From Escherichia phage vB_EcoM_WFH: 64,000 nucleotides of DNA. This document shows, piece by piece, positions 2,140 to 62,188 of this stretch. The DNA lies in sequence record NC_048194.1; one strand, written 5' to 3'. Each line of letters opens with the position of its first letter. Position 1 is the first letter of the stretch. Below the pieces are notes generated by a model. It was not told the DNA's origin and did no database searches. It worked only from the letters and a program-made list of their open reading frames with translations. The position numbers and the translations under genes are program-made.

Positions 2140-3600
2140 ATGAATAAAATATTAACACATAATTGGAAAGTCATGTACCAGTTGAATCCTGCTTTAAGAG
2201 AAGTCTGGAAGACGAAAGCGCGATACAAAGTCATATACGGCGGTCGTGCATCTTCCAAATCGCACGATGCCGCTGGTTTTGCTATTTATTTGGCGGCAAA
2301 CTTCAAATTAAAATTCCTTTGCGTTCGACAATTCCAGAACAAGATTTCTGAATCAGTATATACGCTATTAAAAGATAAAATAGAGATTTCTGATTTTAAA
2401 GACGAGTTCAACTTATTAAAAAACTCTATTGAACACAAAAGAACAAAATCTGAATTTTTATTTTACGGTATCGCACGCAACGTTGACGAAATCAAATCAA
2501 CAGAAGGTGTTGATGTTCTTTGGCTTGAAGAAGCGCATGCACTGACTGAAGAGCAATGGGACATTATTGAGCCGACAATTCGTAAGGAAGGGTCCGAAAT
2601 ATGGATCATATTTAACCCTGATGAAGAGGCTGATTTCGTCTACCAGAACTTTGTTATGCGACCGCCGAAAAATGCCATCGTTAAGAAGATTAACTGGCAG
2701 GACAATCCATTCTTGTCGCAAACAATGCTGGATGTTATCGCTGGCATGTATGAGCGCGACCCGAAAAAGGCAGAACACGTTTATGGCGGAGTGCCGAAGA
2801 CAGGTGGCGATAAGTCGGTCATCAACCGTGCATTCGTCAAAGCCGCGCTAAACCTCCACAAACACCCTACGCTGGGATGGAGCTTGTCAGGGTCTAACCG
2901 TATAGGCTTCGACGTGGCGGACGACGGCGACGACTTAAACGCCACAGCGTTTGTCACAGGCAACGTATTACGTGGCATCAAGACATGGGAAGGTCTGGAA
3001 GATGAATTGCTTAAGTCCGCAAGCGGAGTCTGGAAAGACGCATTGACATTCGGCGCATCAATCACCTATGACGCCATCGGTGTTGGTGCATTTGCTGGTT
3101 CAAAATTTGATGAGCTTAATGAGTATGCAATCCATGAAAATCCAACATTCCCAAGAATCGAATTTAATGCGTTCAACGCGCAAGGTGCTGTTGATGATCC
3201 TGATGACGTCTTCCTTGAGTTACCACACGTTGAAATACTCAATAAAGACCATTTCGCAAACATAAAAGCGCAAAAATGGACTGAGATTGCCGAACGATTC
3301 AGAAAGACATATGAGTATGCGACAGGGCAAGCCGTATATCCGACCGATGAGTTGATTTCCATCGACACAGACGGCATCCCAGAACTTGGTATTCCCGCTT
3401 GGTCTGCGGAAGAAATTGAGACGTTTCTTTTTGAGATGTCAGCACCGCGCAAAGACACGTCTGTACTTGGCAAGTTCAAAGTTGAATCGAAAAAGGATAT
3501 GGCAAAGCGTGGAGTCAAATCGCCTAACAAAGCGGACGCAGCAATCATGGCATTGATGAAACCAATTGTTGCAGCATCCGGCTTCTTCTCTAACCTTTAA
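2140..3600 (+). CDS. terL: terminase large subunit
   Basis: 486 aa; N-terminal ATPase Walker A-like KVIYGGRASSKSHDAAGF, Walker B-like VDVLWLEEAH, C-terminal nuclease-like region; first large gene of the morphogenesis block. Confidence 0.85.
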   Translation: MNKILTHNWKVMYQLNPALREVWKTKARYKVIYGGRASSKSHDAAGFAIYLAANFKLKFLCVRQFQNKISESVYTLLKDKIEISDFKDEFNLLKNSIEHKRTKSEFLFYGIARNVDEIKSTEGVDVLWLEEAHALTEEQWDIIEPTIRKEGSEIWIIFNPDEEADFVYQNFVMRPPKNAIVKKINWQDNPFLSQTMLDVIAGMYERDPKKAEHVYGGVPKTGGDKSVINRAFVKAALNLHKHPTLGWSLSGSNRIGFDVADDGDDLNATAFVTGNVLRGIKTWEGLEDELLKSASGVWKDALTFGASITYDAIGVGAFAGSKFDELNEYAIHENPTFPRIEFNAFNAQGAVDDPDDVFLELPHVEILNKDHFANIKAQKWTEIAERFRKTYEYATGQAVYPTDELISIDTDGIPELGIPAWSAEEIETFLFEMSAPRKDTSVLGKFKVESKKDMAKRGVKSPNKADAAIMALMKPIVAASGFFSNL

Positions 3601-3603
3601 CAA

Positions 3604-3843
3604 TTAAAGCATTCCGTGCTGAAGGTCGAGCTTTCTTGCGGCAAACGACCTGGCACGGAATCGCTTACCCGCCCTTACTGCCTGTCGAATTTTCTTTTGC
3701 AAACACTTACGGTCAAAATCGTTGCGGTCGACGGCTTCGAGTAAATCGCGACGCAGTGCACCCAGTGTCGACTTTTCGGAGACTTCAACGCCCAGCGCGG
3801 CTGCAACATCTTTCAAAACATCGAGTTCGGTTAAAGTTCTCAT
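3604..3843 (-). CDS. hypothetical protein with Rho-N/SAP-like N-terminal helix motif
   Basis: 79 aa, MRTLTELDVLKDVAAALGVEV... resembles Rho_N-type helix-extended-helix; basic C-terminus; opposite strand to flanking terL/portal. Confidence 0.4.
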   Translation of the reverse strand: MRTLTELDVLKDVAAALGVEVSEKSTLGALRRDLLEAVDRNDFDRKCLQKKIRQAVRAGKRFRARSFAARKLDLQHGML

Positions 3844-4418: not shown

Positions 4419-6794
4419 ATGAAAATTCTTGGCATAAAACTCTGGGAGAAGACGCAACCAGAAGCCGAACCAGCGGAGATGCCGCCAGGCGACCCATTGG
4501 CACCGTTTGAACGCCTTGAAAGGCGCGGCAGCGGTCAACGCTGGGAAAAGACTGAAAGCAATCGACCGACCTTTAAAACGGTTGATGACTTCCCTTTATA
4601 TGAGCCTGATATTAATGGCGATGGTGTTGCAATCATAAAAGGTCGTTCAGTCGATTCCGCAACAGTATCCAAAAAGGTTATGGATAATGCCTTAAAGAAC
4701 ATCAGTTCAGAAGGGCAAGTCAACCCATACACAGTACCTATTCAACTTCAAAACTGGTATTTGTCACAGTCATTCATCGGCTATCAAGCTTGTGCCATCA
4801 TCGCACAGCATTGGCTGGTGAACAAGGCATGTTCCATGGTAGGCCGCGATGCGGTCCGTAAAGGTTGGGAAGTCAAATCCAGTTCTGAGTCAGAATTGTC
4901 AGTACAGGCAAGCGAACGCCTAAAGCAAATTGATAAAGAATTTAATATCAAAGAGCACTTAGTTGAAGCCGAACGATTCAAAAATATTTTTGGTATCCGC
5001 GTCATCATATTTGATGTGCGTAGCGATGACCCAGAATATTACAGCAAGCCTTTTAACATTGATGGCGTGACAAAGGGGTCTTATAAGGGAATCATTCAGG
5101 TTGACCCTTATTGGATGATGCCGTTTCTGACGTCTGAAAACACCGCCGACCCTGCATCACAGCACTTCTATGATCCAGAATACTGGGTGATCAGCGGACA
5201 ACGTTATCATCGCAGCCACCTAATCATCTTGCGCAATGATGAGCCAGCTGATATTCTCAAGCCAACTTATATTTACGGCGGCATTCCTCTGACTCAGCAG
5301 ATTTATGAACGCATCTATGCCGCTGAACGTACCGCTAACGAAGCGCCATTGCTGGCAATGTCCAAGCGTACAACCACGCTGCGGACAGACGTTGACAAGG
5401 CGATTGCCAATGAGCGGTCTTTTGCAGAACGTCTGATGATGTGGATCAAGTACCGCGACAACTATGCAGTCAAAGTGCTTGGCCAAAAAGAAGAGATGGA
5501 CCAGTTTGACATTAACTTGTCAGACTTCGACAGCATCATCATGAACCAGTACCAGCTTGTGGCCGCAATCGCAAAAGTTCCGTCGACCAAACTGCTTGGG
5601 ACTTCGCCAAAAGGCTTTAACGCCACTGGTGAATTCGAGATGGTCAGCTATCACGAAGAGTTGGAAACGTGCCAGCAGCATGACCTGACAAAAATTCTCG
5701 ACCGCCATTACAAAATCCTTCTCAAATCAGAAGGGGTGGATGTCGATGTTAAGGTTGCATGGGAACCAGTTGGCTCACTTACTGCTACTCAACTTGCAGA
5801 AATCAATGATAAGCGAGCCAACACTGGCAAAACTCTTATTGATGCTGGCGTCATTTCTCCTGATGAAGAGCGCGACCGCATCAAAGACGACAAAAACAGC
5901 GGCTACAACCGTCTGCCGGAAGACGCAGCAGAAGAAACCCCAGGGATGTCTCCAGAGAATATGGCATTGCTTGGCAAGTCTGCTGGTGAAGTCCTGCAAG
6001 GTAAGGCCGATATTGAACAGGCGAAAGCTGATGTCGTTAAGATGGGCGGCCAGTTCTATAGCGAAACAGGTATTATGCCAGAGGGTGCCGCGCGTGGTGA
6101 GTTGGCGGAAAACCCTGACAAAGCGCCTGTCGAAATCAACATGGACGATACCGATGATGAATCAAGCCATCAGGTTGATGTCCTAACGCAGTTGAAAGAA
6201 GGGCTGGAGGGTATTGCGGATTACTACCTGAAAGAAGGTCAGGATGTGGATTTTGACCCTCAAAAAGATTCACGGTCGGTGCAACCGTCTACCCTTCCAA
6301 GCGTTAAAGGACACGTCGTCAACTTACGCCACAACGTGGGTAAAATGGACGCAGCATCATTACCTAAGATGAAGTTGCACGGAATGATTCTTGGCATTGA
6401 GAATCCGCGAAACAGCATTCGTAGAGGAAACAGCCTTGACGGTGAATGGGCCGTGAAGATGCCGCACCACTACGGATTCATCAAGGGCACCAAGGGCGCA
6501 GACGGTGATGAAGTCGACTGCTTTGTGGGTCCAAATCTGAAGTCGCCGAAAGTCTTTATCGTGAACCAAAACGATAACTACTCTGGCGAGTTTGATGAAC
6601 ACAAGTGTATGCTTGGATTCGATTCAGCAGAAGAAGCGAAAGAAGCTTATCAAGCATCATTTGGTAACGGTTGGAACGGATTCGACTCAATCCACGAATT
6701 AGATGTGAACTCATTCAAGGAGTGGTTGAAGGGTGATTGCTCTCAAGCATACGGAGCACTCAATAATCCTACTAATTCACCGAAGCAAGGTTGA
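4419..6794 (+). CDS. putative portal protein with C-terminal inorganic-pyrophosphatase-like domain
   Basis: ATG at 4419 with RBS aggtgg (track start 4386 is TTG). Position immediately after terL and size suggest portal; C-terminal ~120 aa carry DGDEVDC (PPase signature pattern) and GFDSAEEAKEAYQASF resembling E. coli Ppa C-terminus. Confidence 0.55.
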   Translation: MKILGIKLWEKTQPEAEPAEMPPGDPLAPFERLERRGSGQRWEKTESNRPTFKTVDDFPLYEPDINGDGVAIIKGRSVDSATVSKKVMDNALKNISSEGQVNPYTVPIQLQNWYLSQSFIGYQACAIIAQHWLVNKACSMVGRDAVRKGWEVKSSSESELSVQASERLKQIDKEFNIKEHLVEAERFKNIFGIRVIIFDVRSDDPEYYSKPFNIDGVTKGSYKGIIQVDPYWMMPFLTSENTADPASQHFYDPEYWVISGQRYHRSHLIILRNDEPADILKPTYIYGGIPLTQQIYERIYAAERTANEAPLLAMSKRTTTLRTDVDKAIANERSFAERLMMWIKYRDNYAVKVLGQKEEMDQFDINLSDFDSIIMNQYQLVAAIAKVPSTKLLGTSPKGFNATGEFEMVSYHEELETCQQHDLTKILDRHYKILLKSEGVDVDVKVAWEPVGSLTATQLAEINDKRANTGKTLIDAGVISPDEERDRIKDDKNSGYNRLPEDAAEETPGMSPENMALLGKSAGEVLQGKADIEQAKADVVKMGGQFYSETGIMPEGAARGELAENPDKAPVEINMDDTDDESSHQVDVLTQLKEGLEGIADYYLKEGQDVDFDPQKDSRSVQPSTLPSVKGHVVNLRHNVGKMDAASLPKMKLHGMILGIENPRNSIRRGNSLDGEWAVKMPHHYGFIKGTKGADGDEVDCFVGPNLKSPKVFIVNQNDNYSGEFDEHKCMLGFDSAEEAKEAYQASFGNGWNGFDSIHELDVNSFKEWLKGDCSQAYGALNNPTNSPKQG

Positions 6795-8756: not shown

Positions 8757-9040
8757 GCGTATAATGACGTATCATCCGTATCAAGTAAGTAGTTGTTTTC
8801 AAAAGAATCTTACGGATGATACGGATGATACGCGTTGCCGCGATACTTTATAGGAATTCAAATAAATTAATTTAAAATTATATATCTAATTTAATTTTAT
8901 TTTTTTATAAACTCTTATATATGAAAAGTATCCGTATCATCCGTATCATCCGTAGCACACCAGTGATAGCGCGGCTTATACACCGATACGGATAAAAATA
9001 CGCCTCATTTTATCCGTATCATCCGTATCACACTAATTAA
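8757..9040. repeat. iteron module copy A: tandem/inverted 9-mers (CCGTATCAT / TTATCCGTA) flanking an AT-rich spacer
   Basis: gcgtataatgacgta..., cttacggatgatacggatgatacgcg, ~90-bp AT-rich tract, then tccgtatcatccgtatcatccgta and ttatccgtatcatccgtatca; 45-bp core nearly identical (2 mismatches) to 60229-60273. Confidence 0.7.
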
Positions 9041-48429: not shown

Positions 48430-49512
48430 ATGGCTAGTTTAAGAGAAGAAGCAAAAATAATCGAAGAGTTTTTGACGGAACTCCAAAGAGGCATTCCAGA
48501 AGATGAACGCGTCATGACCGTGTTTGCTCCTGAAGCAACAGTGCAGACTGACGAGCGCGGCAAAAAGATTAACAGCAGCTTCTGGCCTAAGCCTTGGAAG
48601 CTTGGCAAGCCGCTGATGCAACATCAGAACGGTTACGCCTGCATAAGTTCAATGCGTAAGTCTCCCAACCCAAAGACAGGCGAGATGCGATACTGGCGCA
48701 CGGAATCGGCTTTCGGTCATGGCATGGCGATGATGGTCGACGACATCGGACACGGTAAAGGGTCCAAAGGCGATTTGGATTTGGAGTTCTTTTTCGAGCG
48801 CCTAAAACCAACCGTCATTGTCGAGACTTCGCCGAACAACCACCAGCTGTGGTACTTCTTTAAAGACCCGATTGACCATCTTATCCAGTTCAAGGCATTT
48901 CTTGGGTCTTTCGTAAACATGGTACTCAAGAAGGGCGGCGACAACACGATTAAAGATGTGACGCGCGTTGGCCGTGTTCCTGGGTGTATCAACAACAAAC
49001 GTGTGACTCACGACGGACCTTACAAATATGTCGATGAGAACGGCGACCCGTTCCGCTGCCGACTTGTTCATGCAGACTACTCTTTGCGCTACACAATCGA
49101 AGAGATTTGCCAAGCCTTCGGTTTCCACGTCGTTATGCCGCAAAAGCGTGAAATTCAAATCGACGTTGACGAATACAAATATGACGCTGTTTGGTATAAG
49201 ATAGCCCAGCAAATCCTTGCGCGCAATAAGATGGGCGAAGGGTCCGATGGCGATGTGGTTGAAAACATGTCAGGTAAATGCCGCATCATCTGTCCTTGGG
49301 GTGAAGAGCACACCAACGGCGACCCATACGGCGCTTATTTTCGCGGCCCAATCCCTGGCGCTGAACATGAATTCGTTTTCGGTTGCGCTCACGACTGCCA
49401 CCGGAAAGGGGAAGGCAAGAAAGGATGGACCGCTTTTGTTGAAGCAGTAGTTATGCCTTATATTGAGAATCAACTTGATATGATAAATCGTCGCGCAGGT
49501 GGCATAAAATAG
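48430..49512 (+). CDS. primase-polymerase (archaeo-eukaryotic primase superfamily) with C-terminal zinc-binding region
   Basis: 360 aa; AEP-like motifs MVDDIGHG (DxD), ETSPNNHQLWYFF (His motif), TRVGRVPGCINNKR (motif III-like); C-terminal CRIICPWGEEH...FGCAHDCH cysteine/histidine cluster. Confidence 0.55.
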   Translation: MASLREEAKIIEEFLTELQRGIPEDERVMTVFAPEATVQTDERGKKINSSFWPKPWKLGKPLMQHQNGYACISSMRKSPNPKTGEMRYWRTESAFGHGMAMMVDDIGHGKGSKGDLDLEFFFERLKPTVIVETSPNNHQLWYFFKDPIDHLIQFKAFLGSFVNMVLKKGGDNTIKDVTRVGRVPGCINNKRVTHDGPYKYVDENGDPFRCRLVHADYSLRYTIEEICQAFGFHVVMPQKREIQIDVDEYKYDAVWYKIAQQILARNKMGEGSDGDVVENMSGKCRIICPWGEEHTNGDPYGAYFRGPIPGAEHEFVFGCAHDCHRKGEGKKGWTAFVEAVVMPYIENQLDMINRRAGGIK

Positions 49513-50820: not shown

Positions 50821-52491
50821 ATGTCAATTGAACATGACAATCTTCCAGAGGATACAGGTGATGAATTTGGTGCAATCTTTGACGAAATTCAAGACGCTGG
50901 TGTTTCAGAAGAAATGCAAGCGGCAGAGCAGCAAGGCACCAGAGCTAAAATCAGCCTACAGCACAAGGCTGTTGAGAAAGATGCAGAGCGCATGGAATGC
51001 TACGGTGAAGAAGACTTGGTTGAAAGAGCACGTTTGCTCGCCTCACTTCAGGTAATCAAGTTCCCTCATTATAAACCGACGAAAGATGATTTTGTTCTTC
51101 AGGCGGACCGGACGAGTGACATGAACCGTTATGCGGTTTTCGACGCGTTGTTTGATAAGGGAAGCGGCATCGTCCCATTCCCTCACAAAGATACTTTTCG
51201 TGGACGCTTAGTCGACCATCGCGGCGAAACATTCACCGACCGGACGTTGGAAGTCACAGAGATAGTTGCCGCTGTCGATGCAGCAGGCCTGTCCAACCCA
51301 AACTCACGTCAGGTCGCTCAATCCTATAAGGAATGGGCCATGCGTTATCAGCGCGACGACCTGATGGACTTCTTCTACAAGAAGCTTCCTGAATGGGACG
51401 GTACTGCGCGCATTGAGAAATACCTTATCGAGCTATTCCGACCGTTCGATACAGAGTTAAACCGACAAATCGGTGTGTATTTTTGGCTATCGCTCTATAA
51501 CCGCCTGACCAACCCTGGCTGTCAAGCGCCAATCTCCATCGCGCTCATCGGCGGCCAGAACGCAGGGAAGAGTTATTTTAGTAAGCTGCTTTGCGAAGCT
51601 ATTATGAACGACCGCCACGCAACACCGATTCCGTTGAACTTGGCCGCGCAGAACTTCAACCCGTTCTTGCGAGCTATTACGGGTCGCTCAATTATCGCGA
51701 ACGTTGGCGAGATGACGGGCTTTAAAAAGGCCGACATCGAAAACATGAAGGCATTCCTGACTAAGACGGAAGATGACCTGGACTTCAAATTTGAAGACAC
51801 GCAGGTCAAACCACGCCAGTGGATTGCTATCATGGACGGCAACGAATACGCAGGCATGCAGCGTGACGATACGGGCAACCGTCGTGTGTATCCTATCTTT
51901 GTTGGCCAACTCGCCGACAAGGACGGGCAACCGAACTGGTCAAAAGACTTCCAAGCTGACCTTTCCACTTTGAAAGAAGACGTTTGGCAACTGATGGCTG
52001 AGTGTGCTGCGTGGATGGAGAAGCACGGCGAAGCAGGTTACAACGCGTTTGTCGGTGAAACGTCTCGCATGCTTACTGAGTTCAGTAAGAACGAAATGGA
52101 ACGCGCTCGCGGCGTTATCCGTGATGAGATGGTCGACAACGACCTTGTTGAAGTCGTCATTACCGCGCCTTATGACCGACATCACAGCGGACGCTGGCAC
52201 ATCACCAGTGGTGCAATCGCTATGGGATTCAGAGCTAAGTGCGGCAAGTCGCCTTTCTCACGTACCCTTGCGCCGCACATGTCGAAGCTTGGATTTGAGC
52301 CTGCAACCTATCGCAACCAGCGCGGCTACTTTACGCCGCTGATTAAGAATGAAGCAGGGGAATACATTTCTGACTTGATGACTATCTTAGCGTATCTTAT
52401 TCGCGACGAGTCTGACCCTGAAGATATTGAATTCTTGAAGAAGGTTATTGAACGCAAACGTTCTTTAGGAAGAGATAAGGATGAATTCTGA
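50821..52491 (+). CDS. P-loop NTPase, primase-associated helicase-like (D5/VirE-type)
   Basis: 556 aa; Walker A IALIGGQNAGKSYFSKLL in central region with upstream primase-C-terminal-like segment; RBS ggagga. Confidence 0.45.
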   Translation: MSIEHDNLPEDTGDEFGAIFDEIQDAGVSEEMQAAEQQGTRAKISLQHKAVEKDAERMECYGEEDLVERARLLASLQVIKFPHYKPTKDDFVLQADRTSDMNRYAVFDALFDKGSGIVPFPHKDTFRGRLVDHRGETFTDRTLEVTEIVAAVDAAGLSNPNSRQVAQSYKEWAMRYQRDDLMDFFYKKLPEWDGTARIEKYLIELFRPFDTELNRQIGVYFWLSLYNRLTNPGCQAPISIALIGGQNAGKSYFSKLLCEAIMNDRHATPIPLNLAAQNFNPFLRAITGRSIIANVGEMTGFKKADIENMKAFLTKTEDDLDFKFEDTQVKPRQWIAIMDGNEYAGMQRDDTGNRRVYPIFVGQLADKDGQPNWSKDFQADLSTLKEDVWQLMAECAAWMEKHGEAGYNAFVGETSRMLTEFSKNEMERARGVIRDEMVDNDLVEVVITAPYDRHHSGRWHITSGAIAMGFRAKCGKSPFSRTLAPHMSKLGFEPATYRNQRGYFTPLIKNEAGEYISDLMTILAYLIRDESDPEDIEFLKKVIERKRSLGRDKDEF

Positions 52492-54081: not shown

Positions 54082-54233
54082 ATAAATTTCAGTTTAACGA
54101 TAACAAAATCAATAAGGCAGATGCAATCAAGCAGCTTCGGCGCGTACTTGAAGCCAGCGGCCACACGAAAGAGCGTGCACGCGTCTTAGCCAAAGAACAT
54201 TATAAACGTTTTGTGTCACAAATCAGAGGTTGA
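54078..54233 (+). CDS. small ORF (51 aa)
   Basis: ATGA overlap with upstream gene; MNKFQFNDNKINKADAIKQLRRVLEASGHTKERARVLAKEHYKRFVSQIRG. Confidence 0.3.
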   Translation: MNKFQFNDNKINKADAIKQLRRVLEASGHTKERARVLAKEHYKRFVSQIRG

Positions 54234-54235
54234 CC

Positions 54236-54583
54236 ATGGCTCATGTTAAAGACGAAGTGTTGTTTGGCGCAGAGATTAAGAAGCGTGTCAGAGAAATGGC
54301 AGGAGAAGAAAGAATGAAACCGCTGCGAAAAGGTTTTGATCACATCAATGGCGTATCCGGCACGAAGGAGATGGGCGTGTTGGTAAAAGACATTCGCATT
54401 GGGGATGTCATGGTCATCGACCGACAAGCGCGAGTTGTTATCCAGGTGCAACCGAACGATGATGAAGGATGTGTCCTATTGAAGCTGAAGAAGCTTTCAT
54501 CCAGCCCAGCAAAGGCCGTCATTAAGAAGGTCTGGCCCGAAGGATTACGCAAACTCATTCGTCGACCCGTGGAGAATGTATGA
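54236..54583 (+). CDS. hypothetical protein (115 aa)
   Basis: ATG at 54236 (track start 54230 is TTG). Confidence 0.4.
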   Translation: MAHVKDEVLFGAEIKKRVREMAGEERMKPLRKGFDHINGVSGTKEMGVLVKDIRIGDVMVIDRQARVVIQVQPNDDEGCVLLKLKKLSSSPAKAVIKKVWPEGLRKLIRRPVENV

Positions 54584-54819
54584 TGGAAGATTATATCAAC
54601 GCAATGTACATGGCATTCTATGTCGTACAACTTCCCAATGGCGCGGTATTTTATGGCGAGTATACCTTTGACGTTCAATATGACGTCTCAGAGCGTACAG
54701 TGTTAACAAGGGAGTTGATTGCGGACCTTAAGGACGACATCAAGCGCGTCGCGCGGCAGCAGTTCAATTTGGATGACACCGTCATCGTTCGAATTACCGG
54801 AATAACAGAGGTGCAGTGA
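54580..54819 (+). CDS. hypothetical protein (79 aa)
   Basis: ATGA overlap. Confidence 0.4.
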   Translation: MMEDYINAMYMAFYVVQLPNGAVFYGEYTFDVQYDVSERTVLTRELIADLKDDIKRVARQQFNLDDTVIVRITGITEVQ

Positions 54820-55148
54820 TGACCCGTGATCAGATACTCGCCGCGCATGAGCGTGGGTTGATAAAGGAAGTGTGGAAGAAGGCCAATGCCTTTGCTGATT
54901 CTTATTACTTCTTAAAGAAGTGCATCAAGCAAAACGCAAAGATGGATAACACTGTATTGACATTCAACCTTTTGTCTAACGGAGCGAAGCTTGATGCAAT
55001 ATGCGGTTGCAGAATTGCCAGTGTGATGTTTGAACGAGGTGCTCACAAAGACTCTTTCTTCTATCAATTCTCTCACCGGACGGGTGATACAAAGATAACA
55101 AGGACGCGTGAAGAGCTGGAGATTGACCTACTCCACTATGTAAAATGA
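54816..55148 (+). CDS. hypothetical protein (110 aa)
   Basis: GTG/ATG start overlapping upstream stop. Confidence 0.4.
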   Translation: MMTRDQILAAHERGLIKEVWKKANAFADSYYFLKKCIKQNAKMDNTVLTFNLLSNGAKLDAICGCRIASVMFERGAHKDSFFYQFSHRTGDTKITRTREELEIDLLHYVK

Positions 55149-55153
55149 ATATC

Positions 55154-55185
55154 AAAAAGGTGAGCTAAATGCTTGCCTTTTCTTT
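55154..55185 (+). terminator. intrinsic terminator, copy 1 of a duplicated element (AAAAAGGTGAGC-TAAAT-GCTTGCCTTTT)
   Basis: Hairpin with G:U-tolerant stem followed by TTTTCTTTT; near-identical copy at 56692-56725. Confidence 0.55.
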
Positions 55186-55233
55186 TATCAATACTTATAC
55201 TCTTTTCATCAAGACTAACAAGTGAGGTGAATT

Positions 55234-55551
55234 ATGATTTACTTAGGCATCGACAAGGAACAAGACGAGCGGTTAGGAAGCGTGTTAAACGTAGACTTGA
55301 ACACAGCTGTACATATCAAGCCTTGGCCAGATGGCCACCCCGACGTAGTTGTACCCGTTGCACCTTGGACGCGTTACGTGGCCATTGACGATGATGGCCT
55401 TGTCCATTGTTATTCAGAAAGGCCAACGTATTTCGAGCTTCACCGCGAATGGCTGATGACTGGATGGGCAAAGGTGCGCTGTTGCGGCGAAGTCGGTCTG
55501 GAATGCTGGGGATTCAAGGCTAGTGAATCGTGTGTCGAGGTGCAATTATGA
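55234..55551 (+). CDS. hypothetical protein (105 aa)
   Basis: ATG with RBS gaggtga after terminator-promoter spacer. Confidence 0.4.
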   Translation: MIYLGIDKEQDERLGSVLNVDLNTAVHIKPWPDGHPDVVVPVAPWTRYVAIDDDGLVHCYSERPTYFELHREWLMTGWAKVRCCGEVGLECWGFKASESCVEVQL

Positions 55552-55766
55552 ATGCCGCGCTGGGTAAGCTGTCTTTCAACAAGCGCAATGAGCTGCGCAT
55601 GGTGTCGCGCTTTCAACAAACGTATTCATCACTAATAAAGATTGCAAATAAGGCCGACTCTAGAGCTTGCCATAAAGAAGAATGGGAAGCATTGAACGAG
55701 CGTCGTAAACAATTACAACATGCTGCATTCAAGCTGCAGCAATATGCTATGGAGTATGCAAAATGA
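55548..55766 (+). CDS. hypothetical protein (72 aa)
   Basis: ATGA overlap (track start 55530 upstream). Confidence 0.35.
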   Translation: MNAALGKLSFNKRNELRMVSRFQQTYSSLIKIANKADSRACHKEEWEALNERRKQLQHAAFKLQQYAMEYAK

Positions 55767-56047
55767 AGGTGCAACGCTGCCCACATTGCTTGTCAACTAT
55801 GCGACTTCCTGTTGAAGAATATTTACATCACGTTAACGTTTGTGAAGCTAATCCTGAAAATTCGACGCGTTACTATTATCACTATCACGCAGAAGCGGAA
55901 GATGGATCAGGCGCAACAGGAATCGTTACCACGAAAGAAATGGTGATCACCAAAAAGGCGTATGAAAGCCTGCTGGATACAATAAAGGAAGTATCTGGAA
56001 AAGAAATAATCTGCATTAAATCTTTGTCTTTCTTACACGAGGTGTAA
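55763..56047 (+). CDS. zinc-finger-like small protein (paralogue 1)
   Basis: MKVQRCPHCLSTMRLPVEEYLHHVNVCEANPEN; C-x2-C...H-x3-C pattern; paralogous to next gene. Confidence 0.45.
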   Translation: MKVQRCPHCLSTMRLPVEEYLHHVNVCEANPENSTRYYYHYHAEAEDGSGATGIVTTKEMVITKKAYESLLDTIKEVSGKEIICIKSLSFLHEV

Positions 56048-56048
56048 A

Positions 56049-56432
56049 ATGAGAATGAAACGTTGTCCGTATTGCCACGATGTGATGCATCTTCCACATG
56101 AAGAGTTTGTGCAGCACATGACTAACTGTGATAAGAATCCTAATAGCGAAAGCCAACTTGAAGAAAGAATGTTCTTGGTGTCATTCAAAGCTTCTGCTTA
56201 TGAAGTGCAACGTTCTTACGGCGCACCAAGTACGATTTACTGTCCAACGACATTGAGAAGCGACATCGACTCAATTCAGCTTGCGGCCTGGATTAACGTT
56301 AAGGAAGGAATCACGCCGCACTTTATCGCGCGCATCCAATCCCAGATTCTACAAATCAAGCGCGAATACAACCGTGACATCACTGAAGTGAAGGTGTTGT
56401 CTATCACACCGATGAATAAGGAGTTGCCGTGA
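56049..56432 (+). CDS. zinc-finger-like small protein (paralogue 2)
   Basis: MRMKRCPYCHDVMHLPHEEFVQHMTNCDKNPNS; same motif as 55763..56047, with extra C-terminal region. Confidence 0.45.
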   Translation: MRMKRCPYCHDVMHLPHEEFVQHMTNCDKNPNSESQLEERMFLVSFKASAYEVQRSYGAPSTIYCPTTLRSDIDSIQLAAWINVKEGITPHFIARIQSQILQIKREYNRDITEVKVLSITPMNKELP

Positions 56433-56689
56433 ACAAGGGTCCGATGACTAAGTTAGCCGTTGCCGCGCGGAAGCTTCGACAAGCCGTTAATGGGTCGCGG
56501 CCCGTGGTGTTAACACTCGACGATGCAAAGGCACTGGTAGAGCTACTCGACGAGCACAACCGACGCAAGAATCTGGAGAACACATTACGCTGGCGCGTTA
56601 CTCCGAAAGGGCGGGAGAGCGAGAAGAAAGCTTACTTGCGACGCAAACTAAGGTCAGTCGGCCTCCACGAAGAGGCGAAGAATATTTAA
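56429..56689 (+). CDS. hypothetical protein (86 aa, basic)
   Basis: GTG start overlapping upstream stop. Confidence 0.35.
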   Translation: MNKGPMTKLAVAARKLRQAVNGSRPVVLTLDDAKALVELLDEHNRRKNLENTLRWRVTPKGRESEKKAYLRRKLRSVGLHEEAKNI

Positions 56690-56691
56690 TT

Positions 56692-56725
56692 CAAAAAGGT
56701 GAGCTAAATGCTTGCCTTTTTATTT
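56692..56725 (+). terminator. intrinsic terminator, copy 2 of duplicated element
   Basis: caaaaaggtgagctaaatgcttgccttttt followed by T-rich tract; near-identical to 55154-55185. Confidence 0.55.
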
Positions 56726-56766
56726 GCCTGTATTATACTTAGTTCATCAAGCAAAGGAGAATGATT

Positions 56767-57069
56767 ATGAGTTACGACGAAAGGTTTGGCAGAAGCGGAT
56801 TATTTCATGACGCTGTACACAAAGACAGCAAAGATGTTGTCTGCGCATTCAAGGTTGATTCTTACGGTACACTGAAACCTTTTAAGGTCGGCGAAACATA
56901 CAAGCTGTTTCACGGCTGGTTGACGCGTCGCAACAACTTGCCTGACATGGAAGTCTGGTGGATAGAATACAAGGGTCAGGCTCATCGTTGCAAGGTTGTA
57001 GAGGTGCGCGGCGTGGAATACTATCAATCTGTTATCAGCGGCTTTGTTTTTAAAGAGGGTGAGCTATGA
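56767..57069 (+). CDS. hypothetical protein (100 aa)
   Basis: Second ATG chosen for RBS spacing (aaaggaga); track start 56761. Confidence 0.4.
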   Translation: MSYDERFGRSGLFHDAVHKDSKDVVCAFKVDSYGTLKPFKVGETYKLFHGWLTRRNNLPDMEVWWIEYKGQAHRCKVVEVRGVEYYQSVISGFVFKEGEL

Positions 57070-57550: not shown

Positions 57551-58054
57551 ATGAAAATTGAACAACTCGAAGCAGTATTGGAAATGGCCGTAAAGGCAGG
57601 CGCAATCAAAAGCTATCGTCGCGAGAAGTCAGACGATGATGCGAACTTTTGCCGCAACTTCTATATCGTCGGCAACCTTAACGACCACTACACCATCGAG
57701 TGGTATATCAATATCATGACACTTAAGTCGCGCACAATGGAGCTTTGGTGCGATGACATCTGCTTATCTAACACCCATCCATCCTACGACGTTGCGTTGG
57801 CATTCTATTACGGAAGCCGTCAACCTGTCGCCCACATCGGAGAGAAGCATGAGCACCTTAAGGCACGACCAGAGGAATCAATGGAAGGCTGGATTGAATG
57901 GGCTGGAGGAAAGAATCCGGTGCCTGGTAAGAAGGTCATGTTGATGTGGAGGAATGAAGAAAAGTCGTCGTATTCGTCCAATTCGGAGGGATGGCTATGG
58001 CACCACAACGGAAGCGTTTATGACATCATCGCTTATCGCGTCGTGGAGGAATAA
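57551..58054 (+). CDS. hypothetical protein with C-terminal GGxNPVPGK module (paralogue 1)
   Basis: 167 aa; C-terminal WIEWAGGKNPVPGKKVMLMWRNEEKSSYSSNSEGWLWHHNGSVYDIIAYRVVEE shared with 58938..59369. Confidence 0.45.
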   Translation: MKIEQLEAVLEMAVKAGAIKSYRREKSDDDANFCRNFYIVGNLNDHYTIEWYINIMTLKSRTMELWCDDICLSNTHPSYDVALAFYYGSRQPVAHIGEKHEHLKARPEESMEGWIEWAGGKNPVPGKKVMLMWRNEEKSSYSSNSEGWLWHHNGSVYDIIAYRVVEE

Positions 58055-58724: not shown

Positions 58725-58954
58725 CTGATAAACAATACGCAGTCGGACAACGTGACATCGAGCAACTCGACGAAGGCGGCTATTATACGCGCCACATCCA
58801 TGCCATGACGCATGAAGGACTTTACAGCAAGTCAGACATCGCCGCTGAACTGGCCCACCGTGACTTGCAAATTGACATGTTGCATCTTGCTCTTGAGAAG
58901 CAAACGCAAATCGCTATTGAAATTTTGGAGAAGTTAAATGATACAACGTTATGA
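58721..58954 (+). CDS. hypothetical protein (77 aa)
   Basis: ATGA overlap. Confidence 0.4.
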   Translation: MTDKQYAVGQRDIEQLDEGGYYTRHIHAMTHEGLYSKSDIAAELAHRDLQIDMLHLALEKQTQIAIEILEKLNDTTL

Positions 58955-59369
58955 TTTGACATACGATGTGGCGACAGAAGATTTCGACATCACTCCTGTT
59001 CCAGAAAGTCACGAAGGACGTTTTGTTGCATATGAGGACTACGCCGCGCTGGAAGCGAAATATAGTGAAGCGCAACGCGAGTTGGTTGCATTACGCTCAC
59101 AGGTCCGTGATGCGTCTGCGCTCGTTAAGCAGTTGCATGACGTCGTTGCTACTATAGGCGTGGATGCTGATGCGCCGAAGGAGGAAGCGTGGACCGTGTG
59201 GCATGGTGGAGAGAATCCGGTGCCTGGTAAGATGGTGGTGTTTGAATTGCGTTTCGGATATAAATCTAAATCGCCTGCTCTTTCAGATGATTTGAGATGG
59301 AAACGTAAGATGATTGATTGCCCTTCTGCATCAGACATCATAAAGTATCGCGTTGTTAAGGAGGGGTGA
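58938..59369 (+). CDS. hypothetical protein with C-terminal GGxNPVPGK module (paralogue 2)
   Basis: 143 aa; C-terminal WTVWHGGENPVPGKMVVFELRFGYKSKSPALSDDLRWKRKMIDCPSASDIIKYRVVKEG. Confidence 0.45.
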   Translation: MIQRYDLTYDVATEDFDITPVPESHEGRFVAYEDYAALEAKYSEAQRELVALRSQVRDASALVKQLHDVVATIGVDADAPKEEAWTVWHGGENPVPGKMVVFELRFGYKSKSPALSDDLRWKRKMIDCPSASDIIKYRVVKEG

Positions 59370-59818: not shown

Positions 59819-59834
59819 TAGTGATTAATGTTAA

Positions 59835-59859
59835 GAGGGCCGATTGGCCCTTTTTGTTT
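59835..59859 (+). terminator. intrinsic terminator (AGGGCC-GATT-GGCCCT + TTTTTGTTTG)
   Basis: GC-rich hairpin followed by U-tract, ends the long plus-strand small-gene array. Confidence 0.7.
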
Positions 59860-60115
59860 GTCCATGTGGTGTGAGTCTTTATTATCGGATAAAGCGATTG
59901 ATTTGTGTAAATCTATTAGAGGATTGTGGGAAGTGAGTATTGTGACGTGAATTTTGTGCCTTGGATATGTGTGCGAATTTGGAAGAATATTGTACTGTGG
60001 TGTTGTGGGATTGGAGAGGGAATCACTAGGTTTTGGGGCGTGTACCGTGGTGTGTGGGCCTGTAGGCTGCGCCGTCTCTGGGATTGCCGCTTGAAATTAA
60101 AAAGGAGATATAGTT
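59860..60115 (+). other. strand-asymmetric G+T-rich non-coding tract
   Basis: About 250 bp dominated by GTG/TGG/GGG runs on plus strand (C-rich, G-poor on minus strand); the only ORF is a Cys/Trp-rich artefact. Confidence 0.5.
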
Positions 60116-60143: not shown

Positions 60144-60440
60144 AGCGTATAATGACGTAAGATTTGGACCTATCCGTAGTTCACTCCACACACTTCTATG
60201 GTGCGCCGCGACTGGGTTCAGTGGTACATCTTACGGATGATACGGATGATACGCGTCGCCGCTATACTTTATACAACTTTGAAAAAAACAATTAACTCCA
60301 TTTTGAATTAATTTAAATTAATTTTTTTCTACATCCTCATACTTATACTAAACTTATATTTATACGTATTATCCGTAAGATATAAGTAAAAACAAAGACT
60401 TGCGGCAATACGGATGATACGTCATGATACGCTTCAACCA
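60144..60440. repeat. iteron module copy B (homologous to 8757-9040)
   Basis: gcgtataatgacgta...; tcttacggatgatacggatgatacgcgtcgccgctatactttata (45-bp core, 2 mismatches vs copy A); AT-rich spacer; ttatccgtaag and caatacggatgatacgtcatgatacgc. Confidence 0.7.
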
Positions 60441-60605: not shown

Positions 60606-60657
60606 ATGTTCAATCATTGTATAATTCACACTATTAATTTGCACTATGGGATTTGCA

Positions 60658-61133
60658 CTATGAGTCAAGATTATGTAGCAATGCCTGAAGACTTTGAAGA
60701 CCCGCGATTTGCAGAGCATAATCAGGCATTATTCGATGAGTTCATTGACCTTGTTATTCAGGGCCATGACATGCGCGCAGCTTTTGCACTAGTATTTGGC
60801 ATGGAGGTTGCGACCGATAACTACACTGGCCAGCGAATCCTGTGCACTCAGCGCAACCCGTACTACAAGATGCGCTACAAAAAGCGCATGGAAGAAATGC
60901 CATTGAAGGAATTGTGGAGCGTAAAAAGTTCCATCCACAATTTAGTGAAGCTTGTGCGTGATCCAGAAGTCGCGGCGTCAGCCAAGCTTAATGCCATTCG
61001 TGAACTGAATATCATCTACGGCATCACGATGATTGATGAAAATGGCAATAGTAAAATGGGCCGTTCCATGGACGATTTCTACAAGGATTTTGGAGAGGCA
61101 GCCAAAGAGGGTGAGCAATTCTCCCGCCACTAG
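60658..61133 (+). CDS. terminase small subunit-like DNA-binding protein (tentative)
   Basis: ATG at 60658 (track ORF 60465 starts upstream in AT-rich non-coding DNA); 158 aa; ...NQALFDEFIDLVIQGHDMRAAFALVFG...RILCTQRNPYYKMRYKK... resembles TerS N-terminal HTH pattern; start codon overlaps a repeat copy. Confidence 0.3.
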
Positions 61134-61150
61134 CCAATTTGCACTATAAA

Positions 61151-61188
61151 ACGGCCCTAGAACACATTTTCTCCACTTCTAGGGCCGT
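61151..61188 (+). terminator. stem-loop (ACGGCCCTAGAA-n14-TTCTAGGGCCGT) downstream of TerS-like gene
   Basis: 12-bp stem; no strong U-tract. Confidence 0.45.
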
Positions 61189-61561
61189 TGGTAATACGAC
61201 GGGGAAGGCTGCAACCATGAACGCGTTAGAAAGTGTATTATTATAAGTCATCTTTTAGTCACTTTACGTAACAATTTACGACCTTCCGCCGTCCAGTCGA
61301 ACGACTCCACCAGCAGATTTGCACTATAACCTAAGACGATGCGCCCCTTCTCGTTATCGACCCGCCAACAAGTCTCGAATAGCATTCGATTTGCACTATT
61401 AACTATCGCCGCAACGCGCGTTGGGTAAGCGCAATTTGCACTATGGTCGTAAAGGGATAAGGTGCGACCACTGCCGATGGACAACGTAGCGATGAGAATA
61501 AGCGTATTCATAAGCCACCAATTTGCACTATGAAAAGCGACCCCGAAGGGCCGCCATTCGA

Positions 61562-62188
61562 TTAGATAATCTGGAAGGTGTAGGACTTGTTGCCGAACTC
61601 GAAGTTCAAGCGCCCAGCTTCCTTAAGCTTCATGCGGAAGCGAATATGTTTGCTATCCGGTAAGCCCAGCGCGGCGAACGCTACGCGGACCGATTTGAAC
61701 TCGCCTACACCCTCGACCATAACGGCGTTACGGGTGAGACGCTTTTGCGCCACTTCCTTGTTATCCCAACTTTTTGCAATACCTTCGCTATTAGAACGGC
61801 GATGGGAAGGAGTTCCATTTTGCACTACGCAATTTGCACTATCGTTTAGGCCGCTCTTAACGAAGGCTTCATACTCTTCGTCGGTCATCGCGTCGAGTTC
61901 TTCCTGAGTCGGCTCGGCCTTTTTAACGACCGCACGCGCCTTATGCGTTTTTACATCGCTGGACACTTCCTCGCGCGGCTTCGCGTCGGGGATGGGCAAT
62001 TCGTTGGACGGCTCATCGAGCGCGTTTAAGGACTCGATTAACGCGATGACGCGAGTCTCAGCGGTGCGACGGTCCACAAACTTCTTAATCGGTTTTGAGC
62101 CGGAGTTGGCATTATAGAATGCAACGAGGTCGGCGGTCTTAGTTGCGATAACGTCGCCGCTAGTAGAAAAGCGATTTAAGCTAACCAT
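61562..62188 (-). CDS. hypothetical protein (208 aa)
   Basis: Track ORF in CpG-rich block; contains two ATTTGCACTAT-type motifs within its coding sequence (61817-61842); no recognised domain. Confidence 0.4.
   Translation of the reverse strand: MVSLNRFSTSGDVIATKTADLVAFYNANSGSKPIKKFVDRRTAETRVIALIESLNALDEPSNELPIPDAKPREEVSSDVKTHKARAVVKKAEPTQEELDAMTDEEYEAFVKSGLNDSANCVVQNGTPSHRRSNSEGIAKSWDNKEVAQKRLTRNAVMVEGVGEFKSVRVAFAALGLPDSKHIRFRMKLKEAGRLNFEFGNKSYTFQII

What the first reader, a model, noticed from the sequence alone, without database searches (positions are those of the whole stretch)
55154..56725. Duplicated terminator element and tandem zinc-finger paralogues in the small-gene array
An approximately 32-bp terminator (caaaaaggtgagctaaatgcttgcctttt) occurs twice (55154-55185, 56692-56725), each followed by a short spacer and a new gene, splitting the array into sub-operons. 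Between them lie two adjacent paralogous genes beginning M(K/R)(V/M)(Q/K)RCP(H/Y)C...H...C (55763-56047, 56049-56432), a C2HC-like zinc-finger signature, suggesting a duplicated small regulator or nucleic-acid-binding factor.
Basis: seen in the sequence. Interest (0 to 1): 0.35.

Follow-up and report, generated by a model that had tools for sequence, protein, structure and literature searches.

The report
Duplicated terminator–promoter cassette, zinc-finger ORFans
Two copies of a short control element (a transcription stop hairpin fused to a restart promoter) bracket five small genes in an E. coli phage of the genus Wifcevirus, and two of those genes share a 35-residue zinc-finger head; this is ordinary phage architecture and part of it is already annotated in a close relative.

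Summary
A 30-nt sequence occurs exactly twice (55152-55181, 56691-56720; none expected by chance). It folds on the + strand only into an 11-12 bp hairpin followed by a T-run. The window is a Wifcevirus (about 96% identical to WFH), and the GenBank record of phage WFC already marks both hairpins as putative terminators.

The repeat is more than a terminator. It is a cassette of about 60 nt:
- the hairpin;
- a sigma-70-like -35 (TTGCCT) inside its 3' arm;
- a -10 (TATACT);
- a conserved TTCATCAAG.

A copy-specific ribosome-binding site and a start codon follow. All 27 Wifcevirus records hold exactly two copies. Across 14 genomes the hexamers and TTCATCAAG never change. The cassette cores are 97-98% identical, against 80-93% for the flanking genes. 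Gene gain and loss occur at all four cassette edges, but also at other junctions. The closest analogue is the PeSL cassette of T4-type phages, though only two copies exist here.

The two "paralogues" share only residues 1-35, an invariant C-x2-C-x13-H-x3-C finger predicted to fold as beta-beta-alpha. Their C-terminal parts show no sequence similarity. The 94-aa gene is present in only 8 of 24 distinct genus members. Function is unknown, and neither protein is basic. Interest is low.

The parts
55155..55181 (+). Hairpin 1 of cassette 1. Stem of 11 bp including two G.U pairs, loop UAAAU, followed by the T-run TTTTCTTTTAT. It starts 6 nt after the stop codon of gene 54816-55148.
   Evidence: The orthologous site is annotated 'putative transcriptional terminator' in WFC.
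55173..55201 (+). Sigma-70-like promoter of cassette 1: -35 TTGCCT (55173-55178, inside the 3' arm of the hairpin), 17-nt spacer, -10 TATACT (55196-55201).
   Evidence: Consensus scan, 9 of 12 matches. Both hexamers are invariant in 14 genomes, while the spacer varies.
55205..55213 (+). Conserved TTCATCAAG, 3 nt after the -10, around the expected transcription start. Role unknown.
   Evidence: Identical in both copies and invariant in 28 copies from 14 genomes.
55224..55236 (+). Shine-Dalgarno GAGGTGA plus the ATG of the first gene of the bracketed module.
55234..55551 (+). 105-aa ORFan, first gene after cassette 1 (phrog_1972, function unknown).
55548..55766 (+). 72-aa basic protein (pI 9.9), no family match.
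55763..56047 (+). 94-aa protein: an N-terminal CCHC finger (C6, C9, H23, C27; DNA 55763-55870), then a predicted beta-hairpin/helix/strand domain. It is accessory, present in 8 of 24 distinct Wifcevirus phages.
56049..56432 (+). 127-aa protein: an N-terminal CCHC finger (C6, C9, H23, C27; DNA 56049-56156), then a larger predicted beta-hairpin/helix/strand domain. Its CCHC module was detected in every Wifcevirus record searched.
56429..56689 (+). 86-aa very basic protein (pI 10.8), last gene of the module.
56693..56721 (+). Hairpin 2 of cassette 2. Stem of 12 bp, same sequence as hairpin 1, followed by the T-run TTTTTATTT. It starts 3 nt after the stop codon of gene 56429-56689.
   Evidence: Annotated as a terminator in WFC.
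56712..56739 (+). Sigma-70-like promoter of cassette 2: -35 TTGCCT (56712-56717), 16-nt spacer, -10 TATACT (56734-56739).
56743..56751 (+). Second copy of the conserved TTCATCAAG.
56754..57069 (+). Shine-Dalgarno AAGGAG (56754-56759) and the first gene after cassette 2. The likely start is ATG 56767, giving 100 aa. In relatives this gene is replaced or absent.

Best explanation
The repeated element is a composite intergenic regulatory cassette of a Wifcevirus phage, present in two old paralogous copies 1,539 bp apart.

Each copy has these parts, in order:
- an intrinsic-terminator hairpin (GGUGAGC-UAAAU-GCUUGCC, extended by A/U pairs) with a U-run, which stops or attenuates host RNA polymerase coming from the upstream genes and gives that mRNA a stable 3' end;
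- a sigma-70-type promoter that restarts transcription, with its -35 (TTGCCT) inside the 3' arm of the hairpin and its -10 (TATACT) 16-17 nt downstream;
- a conserved TTCATCAAG at or just after the start site, of unknown role;
- a ribosome-binding site and the next gene.

The two cassettes bracket a module of five small genes (four in most relatives) inside a long rightward array of ORFans. They give the module, and the block after it, their own transcription input.

Shown here: the sequence anatomy, the strand specificity, the restriction to this genus with a constant copy number of two, the pattern of conservation, and the position of indel breakpoints. Inferred: that termination and initiation actually happen.

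The two adjacent proteins share a roughly 35-residue N-terminal C2HC (beta-beta-alpha) zinc-knuckle module fused to different small alpha/beta domains. They are lineage-restricted ORFans. They are most likely small accessory or host-interaction proteins whose finger is a structural or protein-contact module, not a basic nucleic-acid binder. This part is weakly supported.
For: Repeat and fold:
- The exact repeat has zero chance expectation.
- The fold is significant on the + strand only. The core stem is -8.7 kcal/mol and the extended stem -13.9.
- Both copies sit directly after stop codons and are followed by T-runs.
- The WFC record carries independent terminator predictions at both sites, probably from ARNold, which is in the WFC paper's reference list.

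Promoter:
- Similarity between the copies continues through TTATACT and TTCATCAAG, while the spacer between them has diverged.
- Both copies were called promoter-like, 9 of 12 matches.

Distribution and conservation:
- All 27 Wifcevirus records hold exactly two copies. The element is absent from other phages apart from a generic look-alike terminator, and absent from 5,426 E. coli genomes.
- In 14 genomes x 2 copies no substitution falls in the -35, the -10 or TTCATCAAG. Changes fall in the loop, the spacer, the 3 nt after the -10, the end of the A-tract, and one stem position.
- Cassette cores are 97-98% identical, against 80-93% for the adjacent genes.
- The flanking genes of the two copies are unrelated, so only the regulatory element is duplicated.

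Proteins:
- Homology is confined to the N-terminal module: E 1e-10, z = 14.6, hhalign probability 97%.
- C6, C9, H23 and C27 are invariant in both families.
- The AlphaFold models show a beta-beta-alpha finger with block-mean pLDDT of 74-90.
Against: - No transcript data exist for any Wifcevirus in the papers searched.
- Promoter-like matches are not enriched in this region overall (29 found, 24 expected), so the promoter call rests on conservation, not on the consensus match.
- The -35 matches only 4 of 6.
- The core stem is short (7 bp with two G.U pairs), so termination may be partial.
- No compensatory substitution supports the stem. The one stem change seen (SP13 copy 2, G to T) breaks a pair.
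- For the proteins, no family is matched above threshold (DUF7501 17 bits against a cut-off of 27), there are no PDB fold hits, and zinc binding is untested.
Confidence: 0.62

Rival explanations
1. The element is a terminator only. It is an intrinsic terminator (or attenuator) that happens to be duplicated. The downstream TATACT and TTCATCAAG are conserved for another reason, for example a 5'-UTR or translation signal read from read-through transcripts, and there is no internal promoter.
For: The terminator anatomy is the strongest feature, and it is what the WFC annotators called. The promoter consensus match is modest, and such matches are as common as chance in this region.
Against: The positions conserved between the two old copies, and invariant in 28 copies, coincide exactly with a -35/-10 pair at canonical 16-17 nt spacing, while the spacer itself is free to vary. 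If the terminators are efficient and there is no restart, about 4.6 kb of downstream genes (55.2-59.8 kb) would have no transcription input.
Confidence: 0.2
2. The element is an RNA processing or stability site. The hairpin acts mainly as an RNase III/RNase E processing site or a 3'-exonuclease barrier within one long polycistronic transcript, setting different mRNA half-lives for the sub-blocks instead of terminating transcription.
For: The stable fold is specific to the + strand, with G.U pairs that exist only in RNA. The loop and stem sequence are strongly conserved without covariation.
Against: The T-run directly after the stem, in both copies, is the specific signature of intrinsic termination. 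A 12-bp stem is short for RNase III. No Rfam family matches.
Confidence: 0.08
3. The element is a recombination or gene-capture cassette analogous to PeSLs. On this view the main evolutionary role of the repeats is to serve as homology or microhomology sites for gaining, losing and swapping ORFans. The 5' arm of the hairpin (AAAGGTGAG) would act as a ready-made ribosome-binding site for incoming genes.
For: All four cassette edges are polymorphic among 14 relatives.
- A 195-bp gene in WFC, SP13 and HansTraber is flanked by a 21-nt direct repeat ending in the half-hairpin AAAAAGGTGA, which sits in front of its ATG.
- An 82-aa gene follows cassette 1 in CWP003.
- Three genes in RCIP0319, one of them like a queuine tRNA-ribosyltransferase, have a left junction GGTGAGGTAAAT-ATG that mimics the hairpin arm plus loop.
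- There are at least four alternative first genes after cassette 2.

The PeSL precedent is PMC2839356 and PMC4122927.
Against: There are only two copies per genome, with about 30 nt of exact identity. None of the 27 records has lost the module by recombination between the copies. Ordinary gene junctions in the same array are also polymorphic: the 495-bp gene is absent from the window and from kaset, and the 94-aa gene is variably present. GAGGTGA-type ribosome-binding sites are common in this phage, so the microhomology is not specific to the cassette.
Confidence: 0.1

Closest known systems
PeSL (promoter-early stem-loop) cassettes of T4-type phages (Arbiol et al. 2010, PMC2839356; Comeau et al. 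2014, PMC4122927)
   Same: Both are composite intergenic elements that combine a sigma-70-like promoter with a stem-loop terminator/attenuator. One described PeSL subclass has the stem-loop overlapping the -35. Both end in a Shine-Dalgarno sequence and a start codon, lie among ORFans in a plastic region, and have indel or replacement breakpoints at their edges.
   Different: There are only two copies here, against PeSLs that densely populate the hyperplastic regions of T4-type genomes. Exact identity is about 30 nt, not conservation spread over about 100 bp. The phage lineage is different (Wifcevirus, distantly related to Pbunavirus). The stem is GGUGAGC/GCUUGCC, not the G-run/C-run stems of PeSLs. 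Promoter activity, terminator activity and mini-circles have not been tested here.
Intrinsic (Rho-independent) terminators as annotated in Escherichia phage vB_EcoM_WFC (MK373777.1)
   Same: These are the same two sites, orthologous and with an identical hairpin core in the retrieved locus. Both are labelled 'putative transcriptional terminator, -10.10'.
   Different: The WFC annotation covers only 19 nt of stem-loop. It does not note that the two are copies of one element, or that the promoter-like part is conserved.
Phage 'morons' (a gene with its own promoter and terminator)
   Same: A small accessory gene block is insulated by its own promoter and terminator. The insertion in RCIP0319, which includes a queuine tRNA-ribosyltransferase-like gene, sits next to cassette 2.
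   Different: The bracketed module is conserved in the whole genus and is not a sporadic insertion. The cassette is shared by two positions and is not private to one gene.
C2HC/CCHC beta-beta-alpha zinc fingers (UBZ4/NEMO-type spacing; CCHFV Gn tail fingers, PDB 2L7X; GTSF1 CHHC fingers, PDB 6X46; Pfam ZNF512_C2HC; DUF7501)
   Same: The ligand pattern C-x2-C-x(11-13)-H-x3-C, a hydrophobic residue three or four positions before the His, and a predicted beta-hairpin knuckle plus helix. That UBZ4 and NEMO fingers have this spacing is from my own knowledge, not a test.
   Different: All sequence matches are below significance: 2L7X E 0.047, 6X46 E 0.19, DUF7501 17 bits against a cut-off of 27, ZNF512_C2HC E 0.013. 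The spacing is x13, not x11-12. The proteins are phage ORFans with no shared function implied.

Membership tests
PeSL-type composite promoter/terminator cassette | Sigma-70-like -35 and -10 hexamers at 16-18 nt spacing | tested here: met
   TTGCCT-17-TATACT and TTGCCT-16-TATACT. Both hexamers are invariant in 28 copies. Promoter activity was not tested.
PeSL-type composite promoter/terminator cassette | A stable stem-loop within or next to the promoter | tested here: met
   An 11-12 bp hairpin, z = -4.0 to -4.5. Its 3' arm contains the -35.
PeSL-type composite promoter/terminator cassette | Bounded by an upstream stop codon and a downstream Shine-Dalgarno plus ATG, in an ORFan-rich plastic region | tested here: met
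   The neighbouring genes have no Pfam or NCBIfam match.
PeSL-type composite promoter/terminator cassette | Many dispersed copies per genome, with conservation spread over about 100 bp | tested here: not met
   There are exactly two copies in the 64-kb window and in every one of the 27 records. Exact identity is 30 nt; the rest is patchy.
PeSL-type composite promoter/terminator cassette | Indel or replacement breakpoints between related phages fall at the elements | tested here: inconclusive
   All four edges are polymorphic. Other junctions in the array are polymorphic too. No enrichment statistic was computed.
PeSL-type composite promoter/terminator cassette | Demonstrated promoter and terminator activity, and mini-circle formation | not testable with these tools
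   This needs reporter assays and inverse PCR.
Intrinsic (Rho-independent) terminator | A G+C-containing stem-loop directly followed by a U-run on the transcribed strand, downstream of a stop codon | tested here: met
   The T-runs are TTTTCTTTT and TTTTTATTT. The hairpins start 6 and 3 nt after the stop codons.
Intrinsic (Rho-independent) terminator | Transcripts end there in vivo or in vitro | not testable with these tools
   No Wifcevirus transcript data were found in the papers searched.
C2HC beta-beta-alpha zinc finger | Four invariant ligands, Cys-x2-Cys ... His-x3-Cys | tested here: met
   C6, C9, H23 and C27 are invariant in 6 + 29 sequences and in the distant homologue P0034, which has x11 spacing.
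C2HC beta-beta-alpha zinc finger | Beta-hairpin knuckle plus helix fold | tested here: met
   Both AlphaFold models show E4-5, E12-13 and H17-26. Block-mean pLDDT is 83-90 (127 aa) and 74-81 (94 aa). These are models only.
C2HC beta-beta-alpha zinc finger | Significant match to a curated zinc-finger family | tested here: not met
   DUF7501 is the best hit: 17.3 bits against a cut-off of 27, sub-threshold in 29 of 29 members. ZNF512_C2HC E 0.013. PDB profile hits have E >= 0.047.
C2HC beta-beta-alpha zinc finger | Binds zinc | not testable with these tools
   This needs metal analysis of purified protein.
Tandem full-length paralogues | Significant similarity along the whole length of both proteins | tested here: not met
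   Only residues 1-35/36 align. The C-terminal parts give z = 0.3 against shuffles. Evidence for a shared fold is weak: the same order of secondary-structure elements and overlapping BFVD hit lists at E 2e-4 to 0.3.

The most novel reading that the evidence does not exclude
The cassette is a Wifcevirus gene-capture site. The 5' arm of the hairpin (AAAGGTGAG) is a latent Shine-Dalgarno sequence. Incoming genes recombine into the hairpin by ribosome-binding-site microhomology and are at once translated from the half-hairpin, while a complete terminator-promoter cassette is regenerated on their far side. Two independent insertions fit this: the 195-bp gene in WFC, SP13 and HansTraber, and the block in RCIP0319 that includes a queuine tRNA-ribosyltransferase-like gene. 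This would extend PeSL-like, integron-like modular shuffling to a phage lineage unrelated to T4. A still more speculative variant is that the zinc-finger proteins encoded between the copies bind the invariant hairpin or TTCATCAAG and tune termination or initiation.
Probability: 0.15. Interest if true: 0.45.

Novelty: new member of a known kind. Interest (0 to 1): 0.2.

Why it matters
If the cassettes work as predicted, they define the transcription units of the ORFan array of Wifcevirus phages. This group is reported to replicate unusually fast and was only recently made tractable on E. coli K-12 (BASEL expansion). That would help in designing deletions or insertions that do not disturb neighbouring genes. 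The insertion junctions inside the hairpin arm are a small, concrete example of how accessory genes enter phage genomes at regulatory boundaries, including a likely DNA-modification gene in RCIP0319. The zinc-finger ORFans are candidates for small host-interaction proteins, but nothing here singles them out from the many unknown small phage proteins.

Tried and rejected
- Segmental duplication of genes plus the intergenic region: rejected. The genes flanking the two copies are unrelated.
- Known RNA family: no Rfam match at E <= 1 in 48-64 kb.
- Host origin of the element: no match in 5,426 E. coli genomes.
- Shared cassette with the jumbo phages JNE01 and Turkey5 (38 nt, 87%): rejected. It is a generic perfect-stem bidirectional terminator between convergent genes.
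- More cassette copies with a diverged hairpin: the TTATACT-N3-TTCATCAAG search found only the two, and TTGCCT-N15-18-TATACT gave only one further, unrelated site.
- Full-length paralogy by sequence: rejected. MAFFT's global alignment (27-30% identity) is not supported statistically.
- Distant homologues: the word-index searches found only Wifcevirus proteins. The exhaustive profile search of 1.84 billion proteins added one 161-aa metagenomic protein (P0034, E 3.9e-4) on short uninformative contigs. It also added one 1,676-aa repetitive protein (P0033, 13 weak stretches), which I treat as a repeat artefact.
- Fold search of the 127-aa model against the PDB: nothing at E <= 0.001.
- BFVD searches: only weak similarity of the C-terminal domains to many 50-120-aa phage ORFans.
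- Other CCHC modules in the window: none in a six-frame regex scan apart from the two genes.
- Covariation support for the stem: none available, because the stem is invariant except for one disruptive change.
- Pfam and NCBIfam on the RCIP0319 extra genes: no hits. Only PHROGs matched them.
Full report
**Identity of the window.** A 4-kb segment around the finding matches Escherichia phages of the genus Wifcevirus at 86-96% identity (WFH 96.4%, WFC 94%). These are 66-72 kb myoviruses, distantly related to Pbunavirus, with little known biology (BASEL expansion paper; Korf et al. 2019).

In the window, large ORFs run rightward up to about 31 kb and leftward from 31 to 48 kb. A rightward block then begins at 48430 with a RepB-primase-like gene behind a TTGACT-16-TATACT promoter-like site. 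It continues through a 556-aa gene (50821-52491), annotated as DNA primase or putative P-loop ATPase in relatives. From 52.5 kb it becomes a tightly packed array of small ORFans that ends at a strong hairpin at 59833. Within the array (52.5-59.8 kb) the only intergenic gaps longer than 40 nt are the two that hold the repeat.

**Checking the observation.** The 28-nt core AAAAAGGTGAGCTAAATGCTTGCCTTTT occurs exactly twice, at 55154-55181 and 56693-56720, with none expected by chance. The repeat extends to 35 nt at 94% identity.
- As RNA, the + strand folds into an 11-12 bp stem with a 5-nt loop: -13.7 and -14.7 kcal/mol, z = -4.5 and -4.0.
- The core stem GGUGAGC/GCUUGCC alone gives -8.7 kcal/mol.
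- Two of the pairs are G.U. The complementary strand therefore folds worse, and the DNA inverted repeat is imperfect. This points to a function in + strand RNA.
- Each hairpin starts 6 or 3 nt after a stop codon and is followed by a T-run (TTTTCTTTT; TTTTTATTT).
- The two ORFs with the M-x-x-x-R-C-P-x-C start are real and are annotated CDSs in relatives.

**What was already known.** The GenBank record of phage WFC annotates both orthologous hairpins as "putative transcriptional terminator, -10.10". These are probably ARNold predictions, since that tool is in the paper's reference list. The terminator reading is therefore not new. I found no transcript mapping for any Wifcevirus.

**The repeat is longer than the hairpin.** Aligning the two intergenic regions shows that identity resumes after a diverged stretch. 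TTATACT (7 of 7) and, 3 nt later, TTCATCAAG (9 of 9) are shared. A Shine-Dalgarno sequence and an ATG then follow.
- The consensus scan called both copies promoter-like. The -35, TTGCCT, lies inside the 3' arm of the hairpin. The spacer is 17 or 16 nt, and the -10 is TATACT.
- Such consensus matches are no more frequent than chance in this region (29 found, 24 expected). The argument for a promoter therefore rests on conservation.
- In 14 genomes x 2 copies, substitutions occur at the end of the A-tract, in the loop, in the -35/-10 spacer, and in the 3 nt between the -10 and TTCATCAAG.
- One further substitution is a stem-breaking G-to-T in SP13 copy 2.
- No substitution falls in the -35, the -10 or TTCATCAAG.
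- The cassette cores are 98.4% and 97.3% identical on average. The adjacent coding DNA is 80-93% identical.
- The copy-specific spacers are stable across the genus. The duplication therefore predates the genus radiation and is not being homogenised. The shared blocks are kept by selection.
- The genes flanking the two copies are unrelated, so only the regulatory element is duplicated.

**Distribution.** All 27 Wifcevirus records hold exactly two copies. No other phage holds the element. The only outside hit is a generic terminator in two jumbo phages. An exact-pattern scan of viral contigs found only Wifcevirus contigs. E. coli genomes have no match, and no Rfam family matches.

**Gene-content breakpoints.** Among 14 relatives, all four cassette edges are polymorphic.
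- Upstream of cassette 1: WFC, SP13 and HansTraber carry an extra 195-bp gene. It is flanked by a 21-nt direct repeat, AAATGAATATCAAAAAGGTGA. The left copy of that repeat is a half-hairpin sitting as a ribosome-binding site in front of the inserted gene's ATG.
- Downstream of cassette 1: CWP003 has an extra 82-aa gene between the cassette's ATG position and the usual 105-aa gene.
- Upstream of cassette 2: RCIP0319 carries three extra genes. One is a 275-aa protein matching phrog_887, "queuine tRNA-ribosyltransferase" (E 4e-71). Another is a 158-aa protein matching phrog_4899. The left junction reads GGTGAGGTAAAT-ATG, which mimics the hairpin arm plus loop.
- Downstream of cassette 2: at least four different first genes occur.

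This resembles the PeSL cassettes of T4-type phages. PeSLs are composite sigma-70 promoter/stem-loop elements that act as strong promoters and terminators in reporter assays and mediate ORFan shuffling (PMC2839356, PMC4122927). The resemblance has clear limits.
- Only two copies exist here.
- None of the 27 records has lost the bracketed module.
- Ordinary gene junctions in the array are also polymorphic. The 495-bp gene is absent from the window and from kaset, and the 94-aa gene is variably present.
- GAGGTGA-type ribosome-binding sites are common in this phage.

I therefore treat "recombination hot spot" as a possibility, not a finding.

**The two proteins.**
- *Sequence similarity.* BLASTP aligns only residues 1-36 (39% identity, E 1e-10). 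Profile-profile comparison aligns only residues 1-35 (probability 97%). The N-terminal score is 14.6 SD above shuffles, while the C-terminal parts are at z = 0.3. At the DNA level the shared module has no long identical run, so it is not a recent duplication.
- *Zinc ligands.* C6, C9, H23 and C27 (C-x2-C-x13-H-x3-C) are invariant in both families.
- *Distribution of the two genes.* The 127-aa family was found only in Wifcevirus by the word-index search (31 clusters, 75-99% identity), and its CCHC module was detected in every Wifcevirus record searched. The 94-aa gene is present in only 8 of 24 distinct phages. It is absent from ManiWeber, RCIP0319, ECO71P1, HansTraber, SP13, Bas101, Mansfield, kaset and CWP003.
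- *Distant homologues.* An exhaustive profile search of 1.84 billion representatives added only a 161-aa metagenomic protein with the same module at x11 spacing (E 3.9e-4), plus a repeat artefact.
- *Predicted structure.* AlphaFold models (mean pLDDT 71 and 74) both give a beta-beta-alpha finger followed by a beta-hairpin, a helix and a strand. The 94-aa model was built with 127-aa family rows in its alignment, so the agreement is not independent.
- *Fold searches.* The PDB gives no fold match. Against BFVD, both models weakly match overlapping sets of 50-120-aa phage ORFans. This hints at a common small fold but does not prove paralogy.
- *Family matches.* All are sub-threshold: DUF7501 in 29 of 29 members (best E 2e-4, 17 bits against a cut-off of 27 for the window protein); ZNF512_C2HC; the CCHFV Gn-tail finger 2L7X (E 0.047); and GTSF1 6X46 (E 0.19).
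- *Charge.* Both proteins are neutral to acidic (pI 6.0 and 6.95). Their neighbours of 72 and 86 aa are strongly basic. There is no specific support for nucleic-acid binding by the finger proteins.

**Verdict.** The best explanation (confidence about 0.6) is a duplicated stop-and-restart cassette. It combines an intrinsic terminator and a sigma-70 promoter, with the -35 in the hairpin arm. The two copies bracket a conserved four- or five-gene ORFan module. The anatomy, the conservation and the distribution are shown here. Termination and initiation are inferred.

The "tandem paralogues" are two ORFans that share a C2HC zinc-knuckle module of about 35 residues. One of them is accessory within the genus. 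Their function is unknown. My guess, held with low confidence, is small host-interaction proteins.

This is ordinary phage genome architecture. It is partly annotated already and is closest to PeSL-type cassettes, so I file it as a new member of a known kind with low interest.

Noticed in passing
window 8768-9026 and 60233-60421: The 12-mer ACGGATGATACG occurs 10 times (0.24 expected), in both orientations. The copies fall in two clusters that lie in long non-coding gaps 51 kb apart. They include a 66-nt direct repeat, 8807-8872 and 60228-60293, at 85% identity. These could be binding sites for a regulator, replication or packaging protein.
   Followed up: partly
window 60637-61844, + strand: Eight copies of ATTTGCACTAT(A/G)(A/G), at up to 2 mismatches, all on the + strand within 1.2 kb. 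Window-wide the pattern gave 10 matches against 2.2 expected. This may be a phage-specific promoter or operator family.
   Followed up: partly
window 57551-58054 and 58938-59369: A second paralogue pair lies in the same array. A 167-aa and a 143-aa protein share a C-terminal W..GG.NPVPGK domain. The DNA stretches 57883-57942 and 59183-59242 are 78% identical, and both proteins hit phrog_9174, 11995, 16943 and 26870.
   Followed up: partly
L008 (Escherichia phage RCIP0319) 4770-6198: Three extra genes are inserted directly upstream of cassette 2. One is a 275-aa protein matching phrog_887, 'queuine tRNA-ribosyltransferase' (E 4e-71). Another is a 158-aa protein matching phrog_4899 that looks hydrophobic. 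Together they might form a 7-deazaguanine DNA-modification module (my inference). Pfam and NCBIfam gave no hit.
   Followed up: partly
L001 (WFC) 4618-4860; also L014 (SP13) and L010 (HansTraber): A 195-bp ORFan is inserted inside the 5' arm of hairpin 1 and is flanked by a 21-nt direct repeat, AAATGAATATCAAAAAGGTGA. The half-hairpin serves as its ribosome-binding site.
   Followed up: yes
L014 (SP13), cassette 2, about 4759-4790: This is the only stem substitution seen in 28 cassette copies. GGTGAGC becomes GGTGATC, which breaks a G-C pair and has no compensating change.
   Followed up: no
window 59833-59885: The array ends at a strong hairpin, AAGAGGGCC-GATT-GGCCCTTTT plus a T-run. A promoter-like site, TTGTCC-16-TATTAT, follows directly. 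This is a second terminator-then-promoter arrangement with an unrelated sequence.
   Followed up: no
L007 (ManiWeber) 3496-3588; L015 (Bas101) 4773-5084: CDSs annotated in these records overlap the non-coding cassettes and are probably miscalls.
   Followed up: no
window 54230-54583 compared with L001 (WFC) 3236-3730: The 495-bp gene present in WFC, ManiWeber, RCIP0319, ECO71P1 and HansTraber is absent from the window and from kaset. This indel is not next to a cassette.
   Followed up: no
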